Under the pieces are notes generated by a model. The model saw only the letters and a list, made by a program, of their open reading frames with translations, was not told the origin of the DNA and did not search any database. From the IMG/VR virus record IMGVR_UViG_2875713109_000001: a stretch of DNA of 64,000 bases; one strand, given 5' to 3'. This document shows, piece after piece, positions 3,001-37,616 of this stretch; position 1 is the stretch's first letter, and every line of letters begins with the position of its first letter. Source of the stretch: a virus (lineage: Duplodnaviria; Heunggongvirae; Uroviricota; Caudoviricetes). Made by a program: the position numbers and the translations under genes.

Positions 3001-6000
3001 TCTCTGCTTTTTCGGTACCGGTATCTGAATACTCCGACAATACCCGGCGACGCGCGGCCTCTTTGCGGTGGGAGTCGGAATCCATTGCGCTGGCTACGCG
3101 CCCGGCGGCAACGAAGTCATAAAGCATATCCTGTGCATGCTCATCTACGGTGTCATCACGTAGCGGAATGCGGGCGTATTGTTCTTTGGTAAACACGACT
3201 GCACGGTAATTTGAGTGCGGGATCGCGTTCATCCGCGCCGTGATAGTGGCTTCATCTGCCAGCTTAAGAGCATCGCGCATAACTGGAGTGCCATCAGTAC
3301 CAAGAACAGGTTTACCGTTCTCATCGAGCACCGGCACCTGGCGAATCTGATCGCCATCCATCAGCACATCAAGACCGACGAACAGGTAGTTACTGAATGC
3401 CTCTTCACTCAGGAATTCTTTTGCTTCGTAATACCAGTTTTCCAGCACTGATTTAGGCACTACATACGCAGTACGGGTGGAGCGACCGTTCTCATAGTTG
3501 AACGCCTCAAGCGCCAGCGCGGTCGTGGTTTTACCCAGCCCGGTGCCGAAGCCCAGGATGCCGCGCCCATCTTCGGACAGTCGGCGCACCTCGCTATTCT
3601 GGTAATCAAATGGCTGGCGCTTACCGCTTAATCCCTTCAACCCAAGCGGATCGCCAGAGTGTTCATACGGGATATTGCTATTGAACACATCGTTATATTT
3701 GGCAACCAGCTCATCGTAGCGATCGTGCGTCTTGATCCACTTATTGAACTGGTCCTCAAGCAGTGCCATCTGCTCGCGGTAGCCGTTCGCCGTCGCGCTA
3801 TCTTTGCCACCGATACGCGCACCATTGAGATACTTTTCCAGCTGTGCCGGGAACCCGGTCGCGTTTTCACCTGATTTACGGTCCCACTCGTAGCGGATCT
3901 CGCCTGTTTCTTTATCCTTGCGCTGGACGACACCGTATCGGTGCCCGACGAACAGACCATCACCACCGTGATAGGTGTCAGAAACCATTTCGTCGCCTTC
4001 CAGCTGCACTGACTGCACATAGCGCAGATCCGGATAGCCGTTTTCCTGCAAAAACTCCAGAATGACGGAGCGGTCGAACCAACGGCTATTGAGCTTAAAG
4101 CGGATATTCTCTGCTGGCGTCTTGATGCGCTTCTCTTCAATCGCTGCCAGCTGATTAAGGACGTTGTTTTTTACTGGACCGTCGGGGAGTGTGGCAAGGA
4201 ATTCCTGTTTTGGAGCCACTATCTCGTTAATGTCGCCGCTGGTGGCGCGGGCAAACGGAACAATCCCGCCATACGGTGAAACCGCAATGCCAGGGGTGCT
4301 GGCCAATAAATTAAGCAACTCGTCATCACTGGCTGGCAGTTCGCCGGTAAACGCAAGGCGGAAATCATCGAGCTGGATTGGATCGCGAGTGAGATCACTG
4401 TAGAGATAACGCAGGGTGTCCTGATAGCTGGTGGAGTCATAACTGGCGCTGGAATCATGCGTAACCAGTTTTCCTGTCAGCTCGTCAGAAATAGTGCCAT
4501 CCAGCTTAATTGCACCACGGAAAGCAAACCAGGCGCGCGCACCGCTCCCCGATAATTTCGCTATCGGACCGCGGCCGGGGTTACCAAAACGGTCAATCTC
4601 TGCCTGCAAACGGGATACCAGAGAAAGGCGCTGCTGTTCGATTTGTTCAGCACTATGCCCGGCGGCCTTCATGTCCTGATATTCAATTAACATCCGGCCA
4701 ATCATCGCCCCGCGATACAAGCGTTCACGGTATTTTTCAGGCTGGCTGTTAATCCAGTCCACCAGCTGCACCATATCGTCGCTGATTGATGTGGTGTACT
4801 TATCGCGGACATTTGCCATCTGGGTAAATGTCATACCGAGACGGCCTTCTGTTGTAGTCAGGTTACGCTGAAGAGCCTCCCAGCTATCCGCGCCATAACT
4901 GGCAACATCAATCTTCAGCTCCTTCCCGGCATCAGCTTCAATCCAGCGACCACCAGCATATTTTTGCCATACGCCATTAATCAGGCGCATTTCCCCTTCA
5001 TCAACAACATCTGCGGTCGGTGACGGTTCAGCCATATCGAGCAAAGACCAGTCGATACGACTTTCGAAACGATGAATCAGCTTCGCTTTAAGAGCCTGGT
5101 TATCAATCTGCCCGTCGGCACGAACCTCAATACGCCCCTGGAATCCCTTCTCCTGAGTGCCATGAACAAACCGGCGGCCGTCCTTTTCAAACCACTTGCC
5201 AGAAATAAACGTTGGCCAAAGCACATTTGCCGATTCAAGAGTGCCTTCATCCACCAGGGGGATTTTCTCAGCCATCTCCGCCGGATGTTTGCGCATCAGC
5301 ACCACGTCAACGACCGTACTGGTCCCGTTTGCGTCAAAAGTACCGGTAGGCAAGCGGTGGGCACCAAGAAATTCAGCTTTCCGTGATAGGCGCAGGCGTA
5401 ACCGCTTCATGTTTGAACCTGAAACAATGGACGGCGGCACAATCACGCACATGAATCCGCCTGGCTTTATCTTGTCCAGCATGCGGAGCATGAAGTAAGA
5501 ACCCATGTCCGTTTCTTCTGCGTAAGGCTTATCGATGTTGCGTGTGTTATCACGACCACCGAACGGAACGTTACCCACAACATGGTCGAATGAATCGTTA
5601 GGCGTGCTTACAGCCAGTTGTTCGAACGGGGAAATCTGTACGCTGTCTTCCGGATGTAACAGCTGGTTTATACGACCGGAAACACTGCTGATCTCAGTCG
5701 CGGTCATCACCGTGCCAACCGGTTTTGTCTCATTAAAAACGCCGGTGCCCGCCGATGGTTCCAGAGTGTTACCTACGTCCGCGCCGTAGAGCTTCATGAT
5801 CTCCCAGACACCTTCAGCTATCGGCTTTGGTGTGTAATATTCGGAGACGGACCCGCCAATGCCGCCTTCACCGGTGTACCCAGCCAGGATCTGGCGCTGT
5901 TCATCTGTCAGTGTCGCGCCGTCCACCAGCGAATTAAGCAAATCTATCGCCTTCTGATTCGCCTCACGGCGCAGTCGGTCATAGCTTTTGCCTTCCACCT

Positions 6001-6109
6001 TTTCCACGCCGTATTTAATCGGCGCTCGGTGAGATGTTATTGCCCTAATGTATTTCAATATTTCGCTGACACTTGAACAGCGAAACACCCCCATAGATAG
6101 CTTGTTCAT
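1..6109 (-). CDS. darB: DarB-like capsid-delivered anti-restriction protein, N6-adenine methyltransferase + SF2 helicase fusion; partial, 3' end beyond left edge
   Basis: ATG at 6109 (rc ATGAACAAG). Three motifs are in one frame with it: DHVVGNVPFGG (MTase motif IV-like, rc ~5571-5603), GFGTGLGKT Walker A (rc ~3527-3553), IADEGHNY DEGH box (rc ~2945-2968). Absent from ORF track because no stop lies inside the window; frame continuity below 2945 not checked codon by codon. Confidence 0.8.
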   Translation of the reverse strand, partial: MNKLSMGVFRCSSVSEILKYIRAITSHRAPIKYGVEKVEGKSYDRLRREANQKAIDLLNSLVDGATLTDEQRQILAGYTGEGGIGGSVSEYYTPKPIAEGVWEIMKLYGADVGNTLEPSAGTGVFNETKPVGTVMTATEISSVSGRINQLLHPEDSVQISPFEQLAVSTPNDSFDHVVGNVPFGGRDNTRNIDKPYAEETDMGSYFMLRMLDKIKPGGFMCVIVPPSIVSGSNMKRLRLRLSRKAEFLGAHRLPTGTFDANGTSTVVDVVLMRKHPAEMAEKIPLVDEGTLESANVLWPTFISGKWFEKDGRRFVHGTQEKGFQGRIEVRADGQIDNQALKAKLIHRFESRIDWSLLDMAEPSPTADVVDEGEMRLINGVWQKYAGGRWIEADAGKELKIDVASYGADSWEALQRNLTTTEGRLGMTFTQMANVRDKYTTSISDDMVQLVDWINSQPEKYRERLYRGAMIGRMLIEYQDMKAAGHSAEQIEQQRLSLVSRLQAEIDRFGNPGRGPIAKLSGSGARAWFAFRGAIKLDGTISDELTGKLVTHDSSASYDSTSYQDTLRYLYSDLTRDPIQLDDFRLAFTGELPASDDELLNLLASTPGIAVSPYGGIVPFARATSGDINEIVAPKQEFLATLPDGPVKNNVLNQLAAIEEKRIKTPAENIRFKLNSRWFDRSVILEFLQENGYPDLRYVQSVQLEGDEMVSDTYHGGDGLFVGHRYGVVQRKDKETGEIRYEWDRKSGENATGFPAQLEKYLNGARIGGKDSATANGYREQMALLEDQFNKWIKTHDRYDELVAKYNDVFNSNIPYEHSGDPLGLKGLSGKRQPFDYQNSEVRRLSEDGRGILGFGTGLGKTTTALALEAFNYENGRSTRTAYVVPKSVLENWYYEAKEFLSEEAFSNYLFVGLDVLMDGDQIRQVPVLDENGKPVLGTDGTPVMRDALKLADEATITARMNAIPHSNYRAVVFTKEQYARIPLRDDTVDEHAQDMLYDFVAAGRVASAMDSDSHRKEAARRRVLSEYSDTGTEKAEKYPYFEDMGFDSVIADEGHNYRNSYKNGREASQLAYLPTSAVAQSARDMAIKNAYLMKKNGGRGPVLLTATPVVNTPIDAYNMLSHVLPKEYWQNMGIYGPDDFVKFFGKTRLETVQKISGEVEEKMALVGFENLDALRGIFHRWVTLKTAEDVKDTVEIPELDEHQQDAPLTEEQLAAYEELRQQAEAAAKANNGVTTSVNEDGVIEHEKARPIFSIIRDMDRVCTDMDLYYRRITYRFLPEYADAVQQLADSLPKQATSEDDDSDDSITQQSQYSLIDKGEFIQLQVPEAFEQEVNKRLARFGIDEQTVTHPVTPKYAKLIATLKEFFPEGKQIIFTDEKTQHQKLKRIICNALNLEPSKVGILNAQTVAEAGKTGKKLKAVKPPKELPDEPTDAQIAKYNEQMALYDAYIAQQNEMSLGGLEKIAADFQEGRTPIIICNKKAEVGINLHRGTTDIHHLTLPWTPASIAQRNGRGARVGSNRASVRVHYYCGKGSFDEYRLKTLKRKAGWISDILRSDKSEMENADANDMIEMQMYTAKDDGERLAMMQVQMDKAKAAKRARQKEQATIDLQNYIKAQHAAGEDVEVLTAELERSKAELEKTTAEVAKFKQAAMAKAADNADWKARWGSVHHTDRMLLAQYRASLKSAIQRKANISQAISRYEKLLNRTQKAATDIKRLRPLVEDAINKGILDVDPDLVNHANEFLVIGDRSWRVGQYYDCAGDIVRIKSLDFDSQRADVESIFTLRGTKSGNWDVKTLDKQVDVTPDEDAVMQKISGGVSIAGINDIISCDDFYRFQQRGMIKITDSYGVQTTESGYSIDFVGTYTDPLKHAVYPDRRDGALKSSIAKWVLGMMSEGNNRQIRSAETFLVELFGSNYGDVIASYGDTLSPEAIQEKIADAIARMPEKTSQGATRNGDSELEVTNAIFGTNEFRASDYEITTAQFGTIGIYSNKAEIKQAMDAASARIAAEREANLNHAFAALTQSWVTAIREAATTG

Positions 6110-6120
6110 TGGTAATCCTT

Positions 6121-6142
6121 AACAAGTGACTAGTGTTAAATT
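6121..6142 (+). promoter_or_regulatory. late-promoter-like motif AACAAGTGACT-N5-TAAATT upstream of prt
   Basis: Motif recurs upstream of lyz, gene 23-like, R and lydA (see findings). Confidence 0.3.
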
Positions 6143-6176
6143 TCCGTTCAAACACGATGCGAATTATTCTAATTAA

Positions 6177-8907
<2,731 letters not shown>

Positions 8908-31600: not shown

Positions 31601-32440
31601 ATCCTCTTTACGCCTGGCCTTTTCAGCACGTTCAGCACGGGCATCTTCCGCTGCGGCCTTACTCCCTGACTTTCCAATAAAACGACCACGCGCATCGCGT
31701 TGGTTTTGGCTTTTTTGCGCACCGCCTTTTTGATCGAACATTTCGCGAGCGTGTTCGGCTGCTTCGGTCCGTTGTGCCTTTATATCCTCTGGTATAGCCT
31801 TCCTGCGTCGTTTTTTACCCTTTGGTGTAGTTGATTTGGCCTGCTGTTCCTGTTGAGCAATGCCCTCCTGAACTACACGAGAAACGTCCCCTAAATTAAG
31901 CCGTTTCATTGCGTCAACAATAGGGTCTACTGATGGCGCATTGGCCACAAAGTCTGGCCGGGAATTTTCGATTGTTCGATTTAATGCCGACACACTGCGA
32001 GATACTGGGTCAACCGTTGCAACGCGTTCCCCTTTCAAATCACGAGCGAGTTTAACCGTTTCTAACCGCTGTGCTTTAACATCCTCTGTTATTGCCTCTC
32101 TTCGTCTATTTGGGGGATTGTGCGCTGTTGGTGCAGCCTGCTGTGCACGGTTAGTGACTTTGTCCTCCCGTATACGAGAAACGTCCCCTAAATTAAGCCG
32201 TTTTATTGCGTCAACAATAGGGTCCACTGATGGCGCATTGGTCACAAAGTCAGGACGTGAATTTTCGATTGTGCGATTTAATGCCGACACACTGCGAGAG
32301 ACAGGATCAACAGTTGCAACTCGTTCCCCTTTCAAATCTTCAACAGCTTCCCGAATACCTGCAAGCTCTTCCAGCTCTTTCGCGCTGGCGGTTTCAACTG
32401 TCCTTATAACATCGTCAATATTGGCGTTTTTTCTTTCCAT
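28649..32440 (-). CDS. sit: tail tape measure protein with C-terminal lytic transglycosylase domain
   Basis: 1263 aa; SLT motifs AIAATESGG, GALGMFQF, AYNAG; internal tandem duplications. Confidence 0.8.
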   Translation of the reverse strand: MERKNANIDDVIRTVETASAKELEELAGIREAVEDLKGERVATVDPVSRSVSALNRTIENSRPDFVTNAPSVDPIVDAIKRLNLGDVSRIREDKVTNRAQQAAPTAHNPPNRRREAITEDVKAQRLETVKLARDLKGERVATVDPVSRSVSALNRTIENSRPDFVANAPSVDPIVDAMKRLNLGDVSRVVQEGIAQQEQQAKSTTPKGKKRRRKAIPEDIKAQRTEAAEHAREMFDQKGGAQKSQNQRDARGRFIGKSGSKAAAEDARAERAEKARRKEDDERLNAESGLLKKLSKVAEGIGNPSETRAVDALGYAVAGPLWAAGKELGGISKEVGGSLNGARKSIADVIRGNDDNSRRKGFFRRKSQNSADVVQVNTQKRTVQELQEQTSEIKEGNDKILSALDQIAKNTGKKKGGLLSKLFSLLGKGAGGVASLLMGRGMLKKAGALAFGALGAKKLVGMLRGGGKKTIAHEGGDLAARAAGKLGLKAVGKGALRAIPLVGTVAGGIYDAVTGWNDTEAQRRAFGLKSGQDPSFQQKAAYTLANVLDMGGLVSGISSAIGEVLKSLGFEDIGNMLQSFSTESIAQAIDSGITNLETYISNLGDTISTKFEDYTAKIGDAVSAWFSDTSNKLLEKLDAIKDFFTVDNLKQVFSDAIDSAIDFIKNPGKHIKEAAGNIWDGVKNLPGKALDAAVDAVKNTPAAMIVSKIPNPIGEANAKEITPELKAPVNSEANAKEIAPQLKAPVNSEANAKEITPELKAPVNSHQETSDSKTESDAKQTNIVTRVINAALDTAKDSNKTVKETANQIINANAVETGNSALQKIDKAIGQNSSSSSSLNTTGTRSDIQKAADTYNNGRLDVKVGSLGSEGKANLDKLAPYFAELENKYGLPEGTLYAIAATESGGNPYAKSQTGALGMFQFTGIAREETGLAEGESFDPVKSAEAAALLMSKYLKQANGDLNEAITAYNAGFGTINKWKKGTGDLSKENREYAIKVNTHRARYLGGEIYTPGAGAQGGAQYGVRGPLPDNAVIDQSTGLAFTPGDSPFEKGGLVDKIGNAVGVNDLVNKFMNGRGMRREVVQGTLEERARGKGTATAAGNVYVDIPMPVEEARPVASNSSYFDQLGAQMGIDGLFDKLRNSPGMRKNNAPEPASTSKVTTAANDLQQPTGRMQIDGQVISDLGGSGAKPTMQLADNTVSLDGETKRLFAQMTSLLARIEEHTKDSAKGQGTVVKVSTPQPGVMRTVPLSIDDPLMNDYARVD

Positions 32441-33417: not shown

Positions 33418-34029
33418 TCAAAGAGAAAAACTAAAGCCCAGAAGGGAAGCCAAAGAACTTGAGGATTGGTTAAACGTGCTGTGCAATGCGAAGGTCATTG
33501 GGAATGACTTAAATTCCGTAACCTGATCCCGCGCATAGGTGACATCGCCGGTAGTGACCGGGAATACCGTCATCTCATTTTCCAGTTTGGTTAAGCCGGA
33601 AGACAGCAACCGATAAATACGCACATTGAGCAAATATTTAGACGGTATATTCCCGGTACCGTCCGGATTGATCACCCGACTTTTTGCCGTCTTAAACCAG
33701 TCTAAAACGAGGCCATCAACGGTATCCCTGACCATCATTGTTATCTGCCCAGGCGAACGCTCCGTTGGTTGAAGGATATTCCCTCCGCCGATTTTAATCG
33801 TTTCATATTCGATGCTGTAATCGTGGTAGGTAATGTCTTTGGCAAAGAAGTCTGCCCCCTCCAGTCCATCAACTTCGACAGAGAACTGCCATCCTTGCGC
33901 GAACAGCATTTTGTTCATGATGATTGACGTCAGCTTACCAACTTCCCGCTCACCAACGCCGGAGCCAAATAATGTCGTCGTTAATGCCGAAGATACATAA
34001 GACTTTACTGAAGCAACATTAAGCCCCAT
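33418..34029 (-). CDS. tail structural protein
   Basis: 203 aa, ATG start, in tail gene array. Confidence 0.4.
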   Translation of the reverse strand: MGLNVASVKSYVSSALTTTLFGSGVGEREVGKLTSIIMNKMLFAQGWQFSVEVDGLEGADFFAKDITYHDYSIEYETIKIGGGNILQPTERSPGQITMMVRDTVDGLVLDWFKTAKSRVINPDGTGNIPSKYLLNVRIYRLLSSGLTKLENEMTVFPVTTGDVTYARDQVTEFKSFPMTFALHSTFNQSSSSLASLLGFSFSL

Positions 34030-34039
34030 ATCAGCCCCC

Positions 34040-34630
<591 letters not shown>

Positions 34631-34686
34631 TTAACAGATTCTACGAGTTGTCATTTGTGACAGTATGCTCGCAATCGTAGTGATTA

Positions 34687-35226
34687 CTACCACCAACTGC
34701 TAGCTTTCTTCTCTCTAGCTTTTCCTTCGCTTTGCAGTAAATCTTTACTTCCTGTAGAAATATTTCTATTTGCATCAGCCTCAGACTGAATTACATCTGT
34801 CTTAGCTGCTCTCTCCTTCAACTCCTGCTCTATAAAATCGTTTTCTCGCTGGACACGAGCCGCTTTTGCTTGCAGTTCGAGTTTCATGCTTTCGAGTTGC
34901 AGCTTGCGAAGCTCATCCTCATAAGCTTGATCTCGCTTCTTGTCATTTGCTAGCTCGGCTTCTCGTTTCGCTCTACGTTCATTTTCTGCAGCAACACGCT
35001 GTTTTTCGCGTGCAGCAGCGGCAGATGCTGCTTTTTCTCTTCTAATACGTTCAGCTTGTGCTTGTTGGCGAATAAGTTCTTTTCTGGCATCCTCAGCTTG
35101 CTGCTCTTTAGCTCGCCCTTCATTTTCCGCTTGAGCAATAGCAGCAATTTGACTTTGCAACGAGTTAGCCAAGGCAGTGCCTACACTAAACGTAGAAAAG
35201 ATTAGAAATAAAATAATTTTATTCAT
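34687..35226 (-). CDS. secreted charged coiled-coil protein (signal peptide MNKIILFLIFSTFSVGTALA)
   Basis: Cleavable-type signal peptide then E/R/K/Q/A-rich repeats; AT-rich DNA. Confidence 0.55.
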   Translation of the reverse strand: MNKIILFLIFSTFSVGTALANSLQSQIAAIAQAENEGRAKEQQAEDARKELIRQQAQAERIRREKAASAAAAREKQRVAAENERRAKREAELANDKKRDQAYEDELRKLQLESMKLELQAKAARVQRENDFIEQELKERAAKTDVIQSEADANRNISTGSKDLLQSEGKAREKKASSWW

Positions 35227-35229
35227 AAA

Positions 35230-35751
35230 TTATTTCTTTTCTGGACAAGTAGCATTTGGCTGAATTCGAGTTTCATTATCTTTAGTTGAAATAAGCACAG
35301 CAAGCCCCGTTGTAAACTGGCATGCTTTACCAACTTGAGTTGAAGTGAACACCTTAGTTCCTTCTTTATAAGTCAGTGAAACACCTTCAACAATTGTTTT
35401 ATCACTAACCAAAGAACCAGCCGCTGCACCAAGAGCCGCACCACCAGTACCGCCAGCTACAGCACCCAGTGTCGATGTGCCTTTAACATTATAACCGGCA
35501 ACGCCCCCAGCAACAGCTCCCAGTACCGCACCAAATGTCTGTGCCGCTTCTTTATTAGCTTTATTATCAACTTTCACTTTAGCTGGAAGCACAGAGATAA
35601 TATTGACTGTCTTTGTTTCCTGCTTCGAATTCAATTGAGCGGTATCATAAACATCGGCAGCATAATCAGCACCGCTAGATTGACACCCAGAAAGAAGAAT
35701 TGCAGATACAACAAGAGCGCATAAAGTATACTTTTTAGACATAAGAATCAT
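35230..35751 (-). CDS. lipoprotein with glycine-zipper segment (SlyB-like)
   Basis: Lipobox LLSGC; GAVLGAVAGGVAGY...GAVAGGTGGAALGAAAGS; AT-rich. Confidence 0.6.
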   Translation of the reverse strand: MILMSKKYTLCALVVSAILLSGCQSSGADYAADVYDTAQLNSKQETKTVNIISVLPAKVKVDNKANKEAAQTFGAVLGAVAGGVAGYNVKGTSTLGAVAGGTGGAALGAAAGSLVSDKTIVEGVSLTYKEGTKVFTSTQVGKACQFTTGLAVLISTKDNETRIQPNATCPEKK

Positions 35752-36032
35752 CCCAGAAAAACAAAAACCGGCGAGAAGTTACCACGAGAACGGAAAGTAA
35801 ACAAGAATACTCCCATTGACTTATATCAAATAATCAACTTTTTATAAGCTATCCCTAACTTATTGTGTATAGCTGAAAAGTCAGAGATAAGTTCACCATC
35901 TGCATTATTTCTTAAGTTAATAGTTTATTGCTAACTTAATTTATGTATCGACTATTGATATCCATCTTAAAGTAACAATATCCCTCTGCATTATTTTTCA
36001 TCACAAATAATACATCTATTGCACTACGCTCA

Positions 36033-36049
36033 CCTGCTCTAATAAATTT
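36033..36049 (+). promoter_or_regulatory. C1 operator-like site (Op51-like) CCTGCTCTAATAAATTT
   Basis: 15/17 match to remembered C1 consensus; just upstream of the immI promoter. Confidence 0.5.
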
Positions 36050-36087
36050 GTATTTTTAAGTCGCGAATGCTATCTTTTCGCATCATA

Positions 36088-36116
36088 TTGACCTTTTAAT
36101 CGTTCAGGCTTATAGT
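36088..36116 (+). promoter_or_regulatory. sigma70 promoter TTGACC-17 bp-TATAGT for the c4-icd-ant operon
   Basis: Near-consensus -35 and -10 with 17-bp spacer. Confidence 0.5.
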
Positions 36117-36229
36117 TTCGCCGTCGTAGCAAATTCTGCGACCAGGTTTGACAGCCTGAATGATTGTGCGGACAACCGCAGATTTCCGATATTGCGGTAT
36201 TTTTGTGTCCGTTAAACCGCGTTACGCCC

Positions 36230-36340
36230 AAATTATGGTGGGGCGTGATGGGGAGGCTTCGGCCTGCTGGTTTCACAATCGCCAGTCTGTCAACCCTGTC
36301 ACGTCCTGCCACCTGTTTGACAGCGGGTAGCAGGTTGTTA
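36230..36340 (+). ncRNA. c4: c4-like antisense repressor RNA region (approximate)
   Basis: Leader between promoter and icd holds hairpin-prone GC segments and TTTGACAGC boxes (~36148, ~36315) with a partial complement CTGTCAAC (~36288). Confidence 0.35.
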
Positions 36341-36363
36341 AACCTGATTGTGAGGCCGTAACT

Positions 36364-36585
36364 ATGGTTAATGCCAATCCTTGCGCACGCCCAGAATTCA
36401 TCTGGCGTTTCTATTCCTGTAAAAAACACCACTATCACTTCGTTATCGCAGCAACTGAAGACGAAGCACGCTCTCAATTGCCTGATGGCCCCTGCATTTT
36501 TACTGCCCGTTTTTCAACTAACTCGCGCAATTCACTTAGTTACTGGAGCCTCCCCTTCTCTGCCGACGTTCAGGGGGGTTTATGA
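36364..36585 (+). CDS. icd: Icd-like small protein
   Basis: 73 aa, ATG with SD GAGG; stop overlaps ant start (ATGA). Confidence 0.6.
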   Translation: MVNANPCARPEFIWRFYSCKKHHYHFVIAATEDEARSQLPDGPCIFTARFSTNSRNSLSYWSLPFSADVQGGL

Positions 36586-37616
36586 AAACACCTCTCGTCA
36601 CCCGTAATGAAATAGCCGAAGCGATCGCCTTGCATACTGCCTGTATGCCGACACGGGAGATCCCCGGCGCAATTGCTAACTATTTCATGATAACCAGACG
36701 TTTTTATACCCGAACAGATAAGGCTGTGATCAACAGGCTACTGATAGCCGAGATCAGGGATTATTTGATTGAACAAGGACGTCTACGTTACGCAACAGTG
36801 GCAGCAGAAATGAGAAAGGAGGCACATAGAATGACCGGTAATAATTTAAATGTTGAAAAACCAGCACCTGTTGCTTCAGCTACGCCAGCACCAGCCCTGA
36901 ATGTCATCCCCAACACCGGAGACACAATCGACAGCCAAACATTGTTGAAGATGGTCAATGAGGCACGGAAATTATGTAGCGAAAAACCAGTTCGCAACAA
37001 TGATTTCATTGCCAGAGTTAAGGATGAGCTTGAAGGAGAAACCTACGAAATTTTCGTAGGTCAAAAAAACGGCGCAGAAATAGATATTATAACCATGACC
37101 TACAAACAAGCCCTGCGAGTTGCCGCGCGCGAGTCAAAAGCGGTCCGCCGTTCGCTGATCGACAAACTGGAAGAATTGCAGCAGGCAAACTCCCCTACCC
37201 CATCGATCCCCCAAACATTACCAGAAGCTCTACGCCTGGCTGCCGAGTTGGCAGAACAGAAAATGCAGTTGGAACAACAGCTGGTGGCCGCAGCCCCTAA
37301 AGTCGATTTTGCCGACCGGGTATCAGTGGCCAATGGAATCCTGATCGGGAACTTTGCAAAGGTCGTTGGACTTAAGCAAAACGCCCTTTTCTCATGGTTG
37401 CGCCAGAACGGCATTCTCATGGCTTTTGGTGCGCGCAAAAACGTACCGCGCCAACAGTACATCAACGCCGGGTATTTCACAGTGAAAGAAGTGGTGCTGG
37501 ATGATGAAAATGGCTACCAGATACGGCTGACGCCCCAATTAACGGGTAAAGGCCAGCAGTGGTTAACTCGCAAGCTACTTGATGCTGGTTTGTTAAAACC
37601 AGTAGCAATAGGTTAA
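36582..37616 (+). CDS. ant1: antirepressor Ant
   Basis: 344 aa; C-terminal antirepressor-type region shared with KilA (IPQTLPEALRLAAELAEQK...GKGQQWL). Confidence 0.7.
   Translation: MKTPLVTRNEIAEAIALHTACMPTREIPGAIANYFMITRRFYTRTDKAVINRLLIAEIRDYLIEQGRLRYATVAAEMRKEAHRMTGNNLNVEKPAPVASATPAPALNVIPNTGDTIDSQTLLKMVNEARKLCSEKPVRNNDFIARVKDELEGETYEIFVGQKNGAEIDIITMTYKQALRVAARESKAVRRSLIDKLEELQQANSPTPSIPQTLPEALRLAAELAEQKMQLEQQLVAAAPKVDFADRVSVANGILIGNFAKVVGLKQNALFSWLRQNGILMAFGARKNVPRQQYINAGYFTVKEVVLDDENGYQIRLTPQLTGKGQQWLTRKLLDAGLLKPVAIG

What the first reader, a model, noticed from the sequence alone, without database searches (positions are those of the whole stretch)
34687..35751. Two exported proteins in an AT-rich island at the P1 sim position: candidate superinfection-exclusion module
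Between the last tail gene and the immI control region, where I recall P1 carrying simABC, lie a secreted charged coiled-coil protein (34687-35226) and a glycine-zipper lipoprotein (35230-35751). The DNA is AT-rich with atypical codons. Envelope-localised prophage proteins here are prime candidates for blocking DNA entry or modifying the cell surface.
Basis: partly seen in the sequence, partly recalled or inferred. Interest (0 to 1): 0.5.

Follow-up and report, generated by a model that had tools for sequence, protein, structure and literature searches.

The report
Phage-borne copy of host yfgH–yfgI
At the spot where phage P1 keeps its sim exclusion genes, this P7-type P1-like prophage carries diverged copies of the bacterial yfgH–yfgI pair (an outer-membrane-stabilising lipoprotein and its long helical periplasmic partner); the genes are already annotated in P7, and their role in the prophage is untested.

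Summary
Window 35230-35751(-) encodes a lipoprotein with a glycine-zipper helical hairpin. Window 34687-35226(-) encodes a signal-peptide protein predicted as one ~24 nm helix. Both lie in an AT-rich cassette (GC 40.5% against 48.3%; GC3 0.24-0.31) that exactly replaces P1 simABC between late promoter LPsit and the C1 operator of c4.

They are phage P7 genes upf50.5 and upf50.0. They are not related to Sim. They are paralogues of the E. coli core operon yfgH-yfgI (67% and 47% identity; Pfam DUF5384, E 3e-43). The lipoprotein model matches SlyB (Foldseek E 5e-8).

YfgH was recently reported as an outer-membrane stabiliser under envelope stress. Diverged alleles occupy the same slot in other P1-like plasmids under purifying selection (dN/dS 0.05-0.12). 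The pair also sits at moron positions in a P2-like prophage and on plasmids.

Most likely this is a lysogen-expressed module that remodels or hardens the outer membrane in the YfgH/SlyB manner. Superinfection exclusion is a live but untested rival, supported only by position and a partial TraT-like hairpin. The genes are already annotated; the function is open. Interest is moderate to low.

The parts
35230..35751 (-). YfgH-family (SlyB-fold) outer-membrane lipoprotein, equal to P7 Upf50.5, 173 aa. Lipobox LLSG|C23. Beta-domain with an inserted glycine-zipper two-helix hairpin (residues 64-112). Invariant Cys144 and Cys169.
   Evidence: 67% identity over 171 aa to chromosomal YfgH. 100% identical to P7 upf50.5. 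The AF2 model hits SlyB 7ojf_A at E 4.9e-8, TM 0.57/0.68. Pfam glycine-zipper and TraT hits fall below cut-off.
34687..35226 (-). YfgI-family (DUF5384) exported protein, equal to P7 Upf50.0, 179 aa. Signal peptide residues 1-20. The mature 159 aa are predicted as one ~24 nm alpha-helix. The C-terminal ~85 aa are conserved and end in SWW. The start codon lies 3 nt after the lipoprotein stop codon.
   Evidence: Pfam PF17358 at E 3e-43, 147.8 bits against a cut-off of 25. 47% identity to E. coli YfgI. AF2 gives a helix over residues 3-178, pLDDT 88. Family alignment. Composition.
35752..36032 (-). AT-rich (32% GC) upstream region of the two-gene operon, with no ORF of 40 aa or more. It contains a palindrome TTGATATAAGTCAA (35816-35829) conserved in three diverged P1-like alleles and resembling an FNR box. 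This is a lead only. The promoter is not identified.
   Evidence: Composition. Alignment of upstream regions. The consensus sigma-70 scan finds no promoter on this strand. The FNR-type pattern is not enriched in the window (5 found, 3.6 expected).
36033..36049 (+). C1 repressor operator Op(c4), the right-hand boundary of the replaced cassette. P1/P7 homology resumes here.
   Evidence: P7 annotation transferred by coordinates. Alignment. Sequence CTGCTCTAATAAATTTG read.
34638..34657 (-). Late promoter LPsit (-10 TAGAAT, -22 region) of the pmgC-tub-pmgB-sit tail operon, the left-hand boundary of the cassette.
   Evidence: P7 and P1 annotation. Alignment. Sequence.
34613..34647 (-). Strong RNA hairpin between the DUF5384 stop codon and the pmgC start codon. 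It overlaps the LPsit -10 and is conserved in P1. By inference, it insulates the late tail operon from read-through of the accessory cassette.
   Evidence: For the 101-nt stretch, strand folding gives -35.5 kcal/mol with z -5.67. Conserved in the P1/P7 alignment.

Best explanation
The two genes are a captured, diverged, mobile copy of the enterobacterial envelope operon yfgH-yfgI, carried as an accessory ('moron') cassette in the slot that holds sim in P1.

Proposed mechanism:
1. The lipoprotein is exported, lipidated at Cys23 and sorted to the outer membrane. This is inferred from the lipobox and Gln at +2.
2. It inserts its glycine-zipper helical hairpin into the membrane.
3. Like SlyB, and as proposed for YfgH, it oligomerises into rings that corral outer-membrane proteins and lipids.
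4. Its obligate neighbour, a ~24 nm charged periplasmic helix about as long as the periplasm is wide, acts with it from the periplasmic side.
5. Expressed in the lysogen on top of the chromosomal copy, the pair hardens or remodels the outer membrane of the carrier cell. That is lysogenic conversion for envelope-stress tolerance, for example against detergents or bile, chelators, or defects in LPS or OMP assembly.

Shown here: identity of the genes, export signals, fold, homology, position, purifying selection, and recurrence on mobile elements.

Inferred: outer-membrane localisation, ring formation, partnership of the two proteins, expression in the lysogen, and the fitness effect.
For: Homology to the host pair:
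- 67% and 47% identity to E. coli YfgH and YfgI, with the same gene order and tight spacing.
- About 69% DNA identity to a chromosomal locus present in 5420 of 5426 complete E. coli genomes.
- DUF5384 match at E 3e-43.
- SlyB fold match at E 4.9e-8.

What is known of YfgH and YfgI:
- YfgH fractionates with the outer membrane. Its deletion sensitises cells to SDS plus EDTA. It is induced by depletion of LpxC, LptD or BamA. [quoted passage not shown]
- yfgH shows aggravating genetic interactions with lptD (PMC3219608).
- A yfgI mutant is nalidixic-acid sensitive (PMC3536626).

The genes are maintained as functional:
- dN/dS is 0.05-0.12 between three P1-like alleles whose dS is 0.56 to above 1.4.
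- Cys144 and Cys169 are invariant.

The pair always travels together and recurs on unrelated mobile elements, which argues for a general benefit to the host cell:
- P1-like plasmids.
- The edge of a P2-like prophage next to the tail-fibre genes in E. coli and Salmonella.
- Plasmid-like contigs of about 100-115 kb.
- A Vibrio conjugative plasmid.
- A transposase-flanked island.
- A 7.5 kb ColE1-type plasmid, next to a phosphoethanolamine transferase.

The cassette lies upstream of the late promoter and outside the late operon.
Against: - No expression data exist for the cassette, and no clear sigma-70 promoter was found upstream.
- No experiment has been done on the phage copies.
- Lysogens already have chromosomal yfgHI, so the benefit of a second, 33-53% diverged copy is not obvious.
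- The slot otherwise holds an exclusion system (sim). In other P1-like elements it also holds a membrane-anchored DUF559 nuclease that looks like a defence gene. That context favours a defence role.
- The lipoprotein model is only moderately confident (mean pLDDT 60, below 50 in the hairpin).
- Ring formation by YfgH itself is so far only an AlphaFold3 prediction in a preprint.
Confidence: 0.5

Rival explanations
1. Superinfection or surface exclusion. The outer-membrane rings of the YfgH-like lipoprotein, with the periplasmic rod, block adsorption, tail penetration or DNA transit of incoming P1-like or other phages. They might also block conjugative DNA. This would functionally replace Sim and work like TraT.
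For: - The cassette occupies exactly the sim slot.
- The two cassette types together account for most P1-like elements in complete E. coli genomes: 182 P7-type and 292 with some sim match, out of 509 with the adjacent tub-pmgC genes.
- Both cassettes encode only signal-peptide proteins and both are AT-rich.
- The same slot holds defence-like genes in other P1-like elements.
- hhalign of the YfgH family against F-plasmid TraT gives probability 89%, E 2.3e-6 over 72 columns. The match covers the two-helix membrane hairpin, including a shared G-Y-N turn.
- Pfam TraT matches at E 7e-5.
- TraT is an outer-membrane ring lipoprotein of chromosomal origin that was co-opted by plasmids for exclusion, and it is reported to protect against some phages (PMC11733297, PMC12658005).
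- The position next to tail-fibre genes in a P2-like prophage is typical of receptor-blocking morons.
Against: - No similarity to SimC.
- No PADLOC hit.
- The TraT match is below Pfam's cut-off, is confined to a compositionally biased Gly/Ala hairpin, and is not supported at fold level (Foldseek E 0.09-0.33, TM about 0.27).
- The pair also occurs on non-phage elements and is a core chromosomal operon with a housekeeping envelope role.
- Hot spots commonly hold functionally unrelated cargo.
- Strict mutual exclusivity with sim was not demonstrated, only implied by counts.
Confidence: 0.3
2. Antagonist or modulator of the host YfgH-YfgI system. The diverged copies form mixed oligomers with, or titrate partners of, the chromosomal proteins. 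This would tune envelope properties for the phage's own benefit, for example by easing lysis or release after induction.
For: - Lysogens carry both copies.
- Divergence is concentrated in the hairpin turn and in the N-terminal half of the rod, while the interaction-prone conserved domains are kept.
Against: - The cassette lies outside the late and lysis operons and upstream of the late promoter.
- P1 itself lacks the cassette and lyses normally (established knowledge).
- The same pair is found on plasmids that never lyse cells.
Confidence: 0.07
3. Phage morphogenesis or lysis component, such as a spanin-like pair (outer-membrane lipoprotein plus periplasmic coiled coil) or a virion protein.
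For: - Superficial resemblance to two-component spanins.
- Location next to the tail operon.
- One phage record labels the genes 'minor tail protein' and 'tail tip protein'.
Against: - The helical protein has a cleavable signal peptide rather than the N-terminal membrane anchor of an i-spanin (sequence).
- The lipoprotein is a 151-aa SlyB-fold protein, not a short proline-rich o-spanin.
- P1 proper lacks both genes and is fully viable. The sim genes in the same slot are non-essential for plaque formation (PMC10695390).
- The homologues are core chromosomal genes.
- The cassette is upstream of, not inside, the late transcription unit.
Confidence: 0.03
4. Functionless hitch-hiker: horizontally acquired DNA with no selected role in the phage-plasmid.
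For: - AT-rich foreign composition.
- No phenotype has been reported.
Against: - dN/dS is 0.05-0.12 with near-saturated dS between alleles in the same slot.
- Both reading frames are intact in 163 plasmid records at 99% identity or more and in 182 E. coli genomes.
- The pair has been captured repeatedly and independently by different elements.
Confidence: 0.05

Closest known systems
E. coli YfgH (outer-membrane glycine-zipper lipoprotein) and YfgI (DUF5384), chromosomal operon yfgH-yfgI
   Same: Same two-gene order and tight spacing. 67% and 47% amino-acid identity over full length. Same lipobox and signal peptide, glycine-zipper hairpin, conserved Cys pair, conserved C-terminal DUF5384 block and terminal SW(W/F).
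   Different: Carried on a P1-like phage-plasmid in the sim slot, as a second copy in the cell. Much lower GC3 (0.24 and 0.31 against 0.43 and 0.49). Unrelated upstream region. Diverged hairpin turn (GYNVKGTSTLG against GHNVGSGSNSG) and diverged N-terminal half of the rod.
SlyB (PhoPQ-regulated outer-membrane lipoprotein that forms 11-13-mer rings around BamA, other OMPs and lipid; PDB 7OJF)
   Same: Same fold: a beta-domain with an inserted two-helix glycine-zipper membrane hairpin. Foldseek E 4.9e-8, TM 0.57/0.68.
   Different: Only 24% identity. SlyB is a solitary gene, whereas this lipoprotein always comes with a DUF5384 partner. The suppressor genetics of YfgH and SlyB differ (clsA against the Mla pathway, according to the YfgH preprint).
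P1 SimABC superimmunity (superinfection-exclusion) cassette
   Same: Same genomic slot between LPsit and the c4 operator. Same orientation. AT-rich. All products carry signal peptides. Dispensable accessory genes.
   Different: No sequence similarity. Three genes instead of two. None is a lipoprotein.
TraT, the surface-exclusion lipoprotein of F-like plasmids (decameric outer-membrane complex; PDB 9FS5, 9FSM, 9E2V)
   Same: Outer-membrane lipoprotein with a two-helix Gly/Ala-rich membrane hairpin. hhalign gives 89% probability over 72 columns, including the G-Y-N turn. A chromosomal gene family that has been repeatedly co-opted by mobile elements (PMC11733297).
   Different: TraT is 243 aa, with an LptE-like core domain and a long beta-hairpin that are absent here. 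The Pfam score is below cut-off (23.1 against 31 bits). There is no fold-level match (TM about 0.27). TraT has no DUF5384 partner.
Prophage lysogenic-conversion outer-membrane proteins such as lambda Bor (serum-resistance lipoprotein) and Cor or Llp (receptor-blocking lipoproteins)
   Same: Small exported or lipidated products encoded by AT-rich morons at the edges of late operons or next to tail-fibre genes, and expressed from the prophage. This comparison rests on established knowledge and was not tested here.
   Different: No homology was tested or expected. Those are single proteins without a periplasmic rod partner.

Membership tests
YfgH family / SlyB-like glycine-zipper outer-membrane lipoproteins | Lipoprotein signal peptide with a lipobox Cys and no inner-membrane retention signal at +2 | tested here: met
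   The sequence reads ...SAILLSG|CQSS, with Gln at +2. SignalP and LipoP were not available, so this was judged by eye against the L-[AS]-[GA]-C rule.
YfgH family / SlyB-like glycine-zipper outer-membrane lipoproteins | Full-length sequence homology to YfgH | tested here: met
   BLASTP gives 67% identity over 171 of 173 aa, E 6e-73. There are 482 homologues at E 1e-5 or better.
YfgH family / SlyB-like glycine-zipper outer-membrane lipoproteins | Two-helix glycine-zipper hairpin inserted in a beta-domain (SlyB fold) | tested here: met
   The AF2 model has strands 46-62 and 118-163 and helices 64-87 and 94-112. Foldseek against SlyB 7ojf_A gives E 4.9e-8, probability 1.00. Caveats: model pLDDT is 60, and the Pfam glycine-zipper models score below cut-off.
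YfgH family / SlyB-like glycine-zipper outer-membrane lipoproteins | Outer-membrane localisation, oligomeric rings around OMPs or lipids, and an envelope-stress phenotype | not testable with these tools
   These features are known only for E. coli YfgH and SlyB, from the literature.
YfgI / DUF5384 (PF17358) | Pfam DUF5384 match above the gathering score | tested here: met
   147.8 bits against a cut-off of 25, E 3e-43, covering profile positions 4-145 of 145.
YfgI / DUF5384 (PF17358) | Cleavable signal peptide, and a gene immediately downstream of a YfgH-like lipoprotein gene | tested here: met
   The signal peptide ends A-L-A|N. The gene is adjacent to a YfgH-like gene in all ten contexts examined. 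It is truncated in pNT1W25-7k.
P1 Sim superimmunity system | Homology to SimC, SimB or SimA | tested here: not met
   Only SimC was compared. BLASTP against SimC gives best E 0.044 and 5.0, with short spurious segments. The P1 and P7-type cassettes do not align at the DNA level.
P1 Sim superimmunity system | Genomic position between pmgC/LPsit and the c4 operator, with exported products | tested here: met
P1 Sim superimmunity system | Blocks superinfecting P1 after adsorption | not testable with these tools
   This needs efficiency-of-plating, adsorption and DNA-entry assays.
TraT surface-exclusion lipoprotein (PF05818) | Pfam TraT match above the gathering score | tested here: not met
   23.1 bits against a cut-off of 31 (E 7.2e-5). 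The match covers only profile positions 74-160 of 214.
TraT surface-exclusion lipoprotein (PF05818) | TraT fold: an LptE-like core, two transmembrane helices and a long beta-hairpin | tested here: not met
   Foldseek against 9e2v, 9fsm and 9fs5 gives E 0.09-0.33 and TM 0.26-0.28. hhalign similarity is limited to 72 columns of the hairpin (probability 89%).
Two-component spanin (Rz/Rz1 type) | An i-spanin with an uncleaved N-terminal membrane anchor, a short o-spanin lipoprotein, and a location in the lysis cassette | tested here: not met
   The helical protein has a cleavable signal peptide. The lipoprotein has a 151-aa SlyB fold. The cassette is outside the lysis and late operons and is absent from P1 proper.

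The most novel reading that the evidence does not exclude
Temperate phages of enterobacteria have repeatedly captured the host YfgH-YfgI system and repurposed it as an envelope-level exclusion or defence device. The system consists of an outer-membrane nanodomain lipoprotein of the SlyB type plus a periplasm-spanning rod. The captures seen here are in P1-like phage-plasmids in the sim slot and in a P2-like prophage next to the tail fibres. It would be functionally interchangeable with Sim and mechanistically akin to TraT. It would also be the first SlyB-family superinfection-exclusion system, and would make the sim locus a dimorphic envelope-defence slot.
Probability: 0.25. Interest if true: 0.65.

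Novelty: new member of a known kind. Interest (0 to 1): 0.35.

Why it matters
- P1-like phage-plasmids are found in about 9% of complete E. coli genomes (509 of 5426). They often carry resistance genes.
- About a third of them (182) carry this cassette instead of sim.
- If the cassette hardens the outer membrane, it is a lysogenic-conversion trait. It could affect tolerance to bile, detergents, chelators, complement or membrane-active drugs. One relative sits next to a phosphoethanolamine transferase on a small plasmid.
- If it excludes phages, it would add a new mechanistic class to superinfection exclusion and give a biological handle on the poorly understood YfgH/YfgI/SlyB family.
- Either way, the phage copy gives a natural gain-of-function experiment for a host system whose mechanism is only now being worked out.
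- YfgI (DUF5384) has no assigned function. Its invariable pairing with YfgH on mobile elements is the strongest hint so far that the two work together.

Tried and rejected
1. Sim homology: rejected.
2. Known defence systems (PADLOC): no hit for either protein.
3. Sequence search of the PDB: nothing significant for either protein. Only the fold search found SlyB.
4. TraT membership: Pfam below threshold, no fold match. Only the hairpin aligns.
5. 'Phage' homologues outside P1-like elements:
   - The TL-2011b hit, and about 60 IMG/VR hits at 66-69% identity, are host flanks (yfgG-yfgH-yfgI) at the ends of prophage records, not phage genes.
   - BFVD holds a few other viral SlyB-like proteins, but none with a known function.
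6. Spanin, virion and 'DNA methyltransferase' annotations: rejected on architecture, position and homology.
7. Promoter search: the consensus scan found no sigma-70 promoter on the coding strand. Manual placement of a -10 relative to the FNR-like palindrome was inconsistent between alleles. The palindrome alone is not significant in the window.
8. Rfam: only the known C4 RNA and its a1b1 targets, to the right of the cassette. Nothing inside the cassette.
9. Literature: no paper in the library mentions upf50.0, upf50.5 or DUF5384. No paper links SlyB or glycine-zipper lipoproteins to prophage exclusion.
10. The ~102 kb Salmonella contig carrying a 61%-identical pair (L007) has no nucleotide match in the phage collection. 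Its nature, plasmid or phage-plasmid, stays open.
Full report
**What the window is.** The region around the finding is a P1-family phage-plasmid.
- On the minus strand lie sit (1263 aa), pmgB, tub and pmgC.
- On the plus strand follow the c4/icd/ant1 immunity-I region, kilA and repL.
- Rfam confirms the C4 antisense RNA at 36231-36316 and its a1b1 targets at 36110-36162.
- Window 34000-36600 is 98-99% identical over its full length to phage P7, RCS47, SJ46, JL22 and others.
- P1 itself matches only the flanks, 47% of the query.

**Check of the observation.** Both ORFs are present as described.
- In the P7 GenBank record they are upf50.0 ('membrane protein of unknown function', with signal peptide) and upf50.5 ('outer membrane lipoprotein of unknown function', with signal peptide). 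Both notes say they resemble putative E. coli K-12 proteins.
- Aligning the window with annotated P1 and P7 shows homology with P1 ending just past late promoter LPsit (window 34638-34657). It resumes at the C1 operator of c4 (window 36033-36049).
- In between, P1 has simC-simB-simA and the window has the two-gene cassette.
- The cassette is AT-rich: 40.5% GC against 48.3% for the window. The two genes are 42.6% GC, the 6th percentile of equal-sized windows. GC3 is 0.24 and 0.31, against 0.41-0.52 for neighbouring genes. The upstream spacer is 32% GC.
- The P1 sim cassette is also AT-rich, at 33.6% GC.

**What the proteins are.** They are not related to Sim (BLASTP against SimC gives E 0.04 and 5) and match no PADLOC defence model.
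- The 179-aa protein is a full-length DUF5384 member (PF17358, E 3e-43).
- At the DNA level the pair matches, at about 69% identity, a chromosomal locus in 5420 of 5426 complete E. coli genomes. That locus is annotated yfgI (DUF5384) and yfgH (outer membrane lipoprotein / glycine zipper 2TM).
- In a K-12-derived chromosome the arrangement is guaA | yfgI-yfgH | yfgG, with the same order and tight spacing.
- Protein identities are 67% (YfgH, full length, E 6e-73) and 47% (YfgI, full length, E 9e-46).

**Structure of the lipoprotein.**
- It has the lipobox LLSG|C23 with Gln at +2, which implies outer-membrane sorting.
- Cys144 and Cys169 are invariant in 90 homologues, which implies a periplasmic disulfide.
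- An AlphaFold model built from those 90 homologues has mean pLDDT 60: 72-82 across the main block of the beta-domain (residues 121-170) and below 50 in the monomeric hairpin.
- It shows a beta-domain with an inserted pair of helices at 64-87 and 94-112.
- Its only significant PDB match is SlyB in the SlyB13-BamA complex (7ojf_A, E 4.9e-8, TM 0.57/0.68, 24% identity). The three TraT structures come next but are not significant (E 0.09-0.33, TM about 0.27).

**Structure of the DUF5384 protein.**
- It has a signal peptide ending A-L-A|N.
- The model is a single uninterrupted helix over residues 3-178, pLDDT 88.
- The mature 159 residues would measure about 24 nm, roughly the width of the periplasm. 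That comparison is my inference.
- The N-terminal half is a variable, highly charged Ala/Glu/Arg/Lys/Gln stretch with few hydrophobic residues.
- The C-terminal ~85 residues are conserved across the family and end in SW(W/F).

**What is known about the host homologues.**
- YfgH fractionates with the outer membrane.
- Its deletion sensitises cells to SDS plus EDTA and raises NPN uptake.
- It is strongly induced when LpxC, LptD or BamA is depleted, and its overexpression rescues such depletions.
- It is predicted, not shown, to form SlyB-like rings. Loss of cardiolipin synthase suppresses the deletion phenotype (bioRxiv 10.64898/2025.12.22.696046).
- An earlier genetic-interaction map tied yfgH to lptD and outer-membrane integrity (PMC3219608).
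- A yfgI mutant is nalidixic-acid sensitive (PMC3536626). Since YfgI is an exported protein, I would read that as a permeability effect.
- The S. Typhi orthologues (srgIL) are SdiA-regulated (PMC11619404).
- No paper in the searchable library mentions upf50.0, upf50.5 or DUF5384.

**Population and evolutionary evidence.** Among 5426 complete E. coli genomes:
- 509 carry the adjacent P1-like tub-pmgC genes.
- 182 carry this cassette at 80% coverage or more, mostly on plasmids.
- 292 have some match to the P1 sim cassette, 127 of them at 80% coverage or more.
- The two cassette types therefore account for most P1-like elements. Strict mutual exclusivity was not checked genome by genome.

In PLSDB, 205 plasmids encode the lipoprotein: 163 at 99% identity or more and 20 at 80-90%. 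Diverged alleles sit in the same slot of other P1-like elements:
- An E. albertii element has 88% and 81% protein identity. It carries extra genes between the pair and pmgC.
- E. coli pE189-1 has 84% and 80% identity. It carries an extra membrane-anchored DUF559 nuclease gene that weakly hits defence-system models.
- Between these alleles dS is 0.56 to above 1.4 while dN/dS is 0.05-0.12 for both genes. The alleles are therefore old, were exchanged as cassettes on a backbone that is 95-99% identical, and are under purifying selection.

The pair also occurs, always together, in other settings:
- At the edge of a P2-like prophage, directly after the tail-fibre and DUF4376 genes, in E. coli (73% identity, many assemblies) and Salmonella.
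- On 100-115 kb plasmid-like contigs of Salmonella and Enterobacter.
- On a Vibrio conjugative plasmid.
- In a transposase-flanked island.
- On a 7.5 kb ColE1-type plasmid next to a 534-aa phosphoethanolamine transferase. There the DUF5384 gene is truncated.

By contrast, the TL-2011b 'phage' hit and about 60 IMG/VR hits at 66-69% identity are host flanks at the ends of prophage records.

**Interpretation.**
- The identity of the genes (a mobile yfgH-yfgI pair), their export, the SlyB fold and their maintenance by selection are well supported.
- The most economical mechanism is that they do in the lysogen what YfgH is reported to do. That is to insert into the outer membrane and stabilise or compartmentalise it, with the periplasmic rod as partner. 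The carrier cell would gain a more robust or altered envelope.
- The spread of the pair to non-phage elements, and its company with an LPS-modifying enzyme, fit a general benefit to the cell.

- The cassette replaces sim precisely.
- All three Sim products are also signal-peptide proteins.
- The slot attracts defence-like cargo.
- Profile comparison shows that the membrane hairpin resembles that of the surface-exclusion lipoprotein TraT (hhalign probability 89%, E 2.3e-6, 72 columns, shared G-Y-N turn).
- TraT is itself a chromosomal family repeatedly co-opted by plasmids (PMC11733297).
- However, that similarity is confined to a Gly/Ala-rich segment, is below Pfam's threshold and is not seen at fold level.

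I give about 0.5 to envelope hardening or conversion and about 0.3 to exclusion. Small weights go to antagonism of the host system, a structural or lysis role, and no function at all.

**Regulation (weak evidence).**
- The cassette lies upstream of, and outside, the late tail operon. No consensus sigma-70 promoter was found on its strand.
- Three diverged P1-like alleles share a block about 70 nt upstream of the start codon. It contains a palindrome resembling an FNR box: the window has TTGATATAAGTCAA, pE189-1 has a perfect TTGAT-N4-ATCAA, and E. albertii matches 8 of 10 positions.
- In the window alone such a match is not significant, so this is a lead only.
- A strong hairpin at 34613-34647 (z -5.67 for the 101-nt stretch) overlaps the -10 of LPsit. 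Transcripts coming from the cassette would contain the whole hairpin. Late transcripts would start inside its loop. By inference, the hairpin insulates the tail operon from read-through.

**Novelty and verdict.** The genes have been annotated in P7 as of unknown function, with the E. coli similarity noted. Their family membership is clear, so this is a new (phage-borne) member of a known kind rather than a new kind of system. Three points are new and worth a modest follow-up:
- The link to the recently proposed YfgH/SlyB mechanism.
- The finding that a large share of P1-like elements carry this cassette in place of sim.
- The recurrent capture of the pair by different temperate phages and plasmids.

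Interest is 0.35. The most novel reading not excluded is a SlyB-type exclusion system interchangeable with Sim. I give it a probability of about 0.25 and an interest of 0.65 if true.

Noticed in passing
window 35230-35751; RefSeq records NC_050152, NC_042128, NC_031129, NC_019445: RefSeq phage records and PHROG phrog_1277 name this lipoprotein 'DNA methyltransferase'. One record calls the pair 'minor tail protein' and 'tail tip protein'. These names contradict the lipobox, the SlyB fold and the YfgH homology, and look like propagated misannotation.
   Followed up: partly
L004 (phage TL-2011b, record 41360-43105); L033-L094 (IMG/VR contigs): The TL-2011b record and about 60 IMG/VR prophage contigs end in host DNA (yfgG-yfgH-yfgI, and pdeF in TL-2011b). 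A common prophage integration site therefore lies beside chromosomal yfgI/guaA, and host flanks contaminate phage protein families.
   Followed up: partly
window 34613-34647 (minus-strand RNA): A 12-15 bp hairpin lies between the DUF5384 stop codon and the pmgC start codon. It overlaps the -10 of late promoter LPsit and is conserved in P1. Upstream transcripts would contain the whole hairpin, while late transcripts would start in its loop. It is a possible insulator or terminator.
   Followed up: partly
window 35816-35829: The palindrome TTGATATAAGTCAA resembles the FNR box TTGAT-N4-ATCAA. It is conserved upstream of three diverged P1-like alleles and is perfect in pE189-1. It is not significant in the window alone, and the promoter geometry is inconsistent between alleles.
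   Followed up: partly
L012 (plasmid pNT1W25-7k, NZ_CP075476.1) 3843-7127: A 7.5 kb mobilisable ColE1-type plasmid carries a YfgH-like lipoprotein (75% identity), a truncated DUF5384 gene and an AT-rich 534-aa phosphoethanolamine transferase side by side. This looks like an envelope-remodelling cargo.
   Followed up: no
L097/L098 6001-7071; L009 5001-6076: A P2-like prophage in E. coli (inserted near aspS-yecD) carries a 73%-identical YfgH/DUF5384 pair right after the tail-fibre and DUF4376 genes, at the prophage edge. A 74%-identical pair sits next to a DUF4376 gene in Salmonella. Together these point to a second, independent phage capture.
   Followed up: partly
L011 4890-6149 (pE189-1); L005 4032-4355 and 6175-8298 (E. 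albertii): In other P1-like elements the same slot holds additional AT-rich genes. One is a protein with N-terminal membrane helices and a DUF559/REase nuclease domain, which gives weak PADLOC PDC-S37 and Hhe hits. The others are a YfjT-like protein, a 389-aa protein with a hydrophobic segment and a C-terminal SH3_3 domain, and a 107-aa membrane protein. The slot is an accessory or defence hot spot.
   Followed up: partly
L002 2317-3601 (P1 simC, simB, simA): All three Sim proteins begin with signal-peptide-like sequences, and the sim cassette is 33.6% GC. Both alternative cassettes therefore encode only exported proteins and both look foreign to the backbone.
   Followed up: yes
window 28649-32440 (-): The sit (tape-measure/transglycosylase) ORF is 1263 aa. 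It contains an N-terminal block of about 85 aa duplicated in tandem (…DLKGERVATVDPVSRSVSALNRTIENSRPDFV…) and three copies of ANAKEI(T/A)P(E/Q)LKAPVNSE.
   Followed up: no
window 36123-36204 (+): A sub-threshold Rfam match to the Salmonella Hfq-binding sRNA isrK (43 bits against a gathering score of 50, E 2.9e-7) overlaps the c4 a1b1 target region of the immunity-I leader.
   Followed up: no
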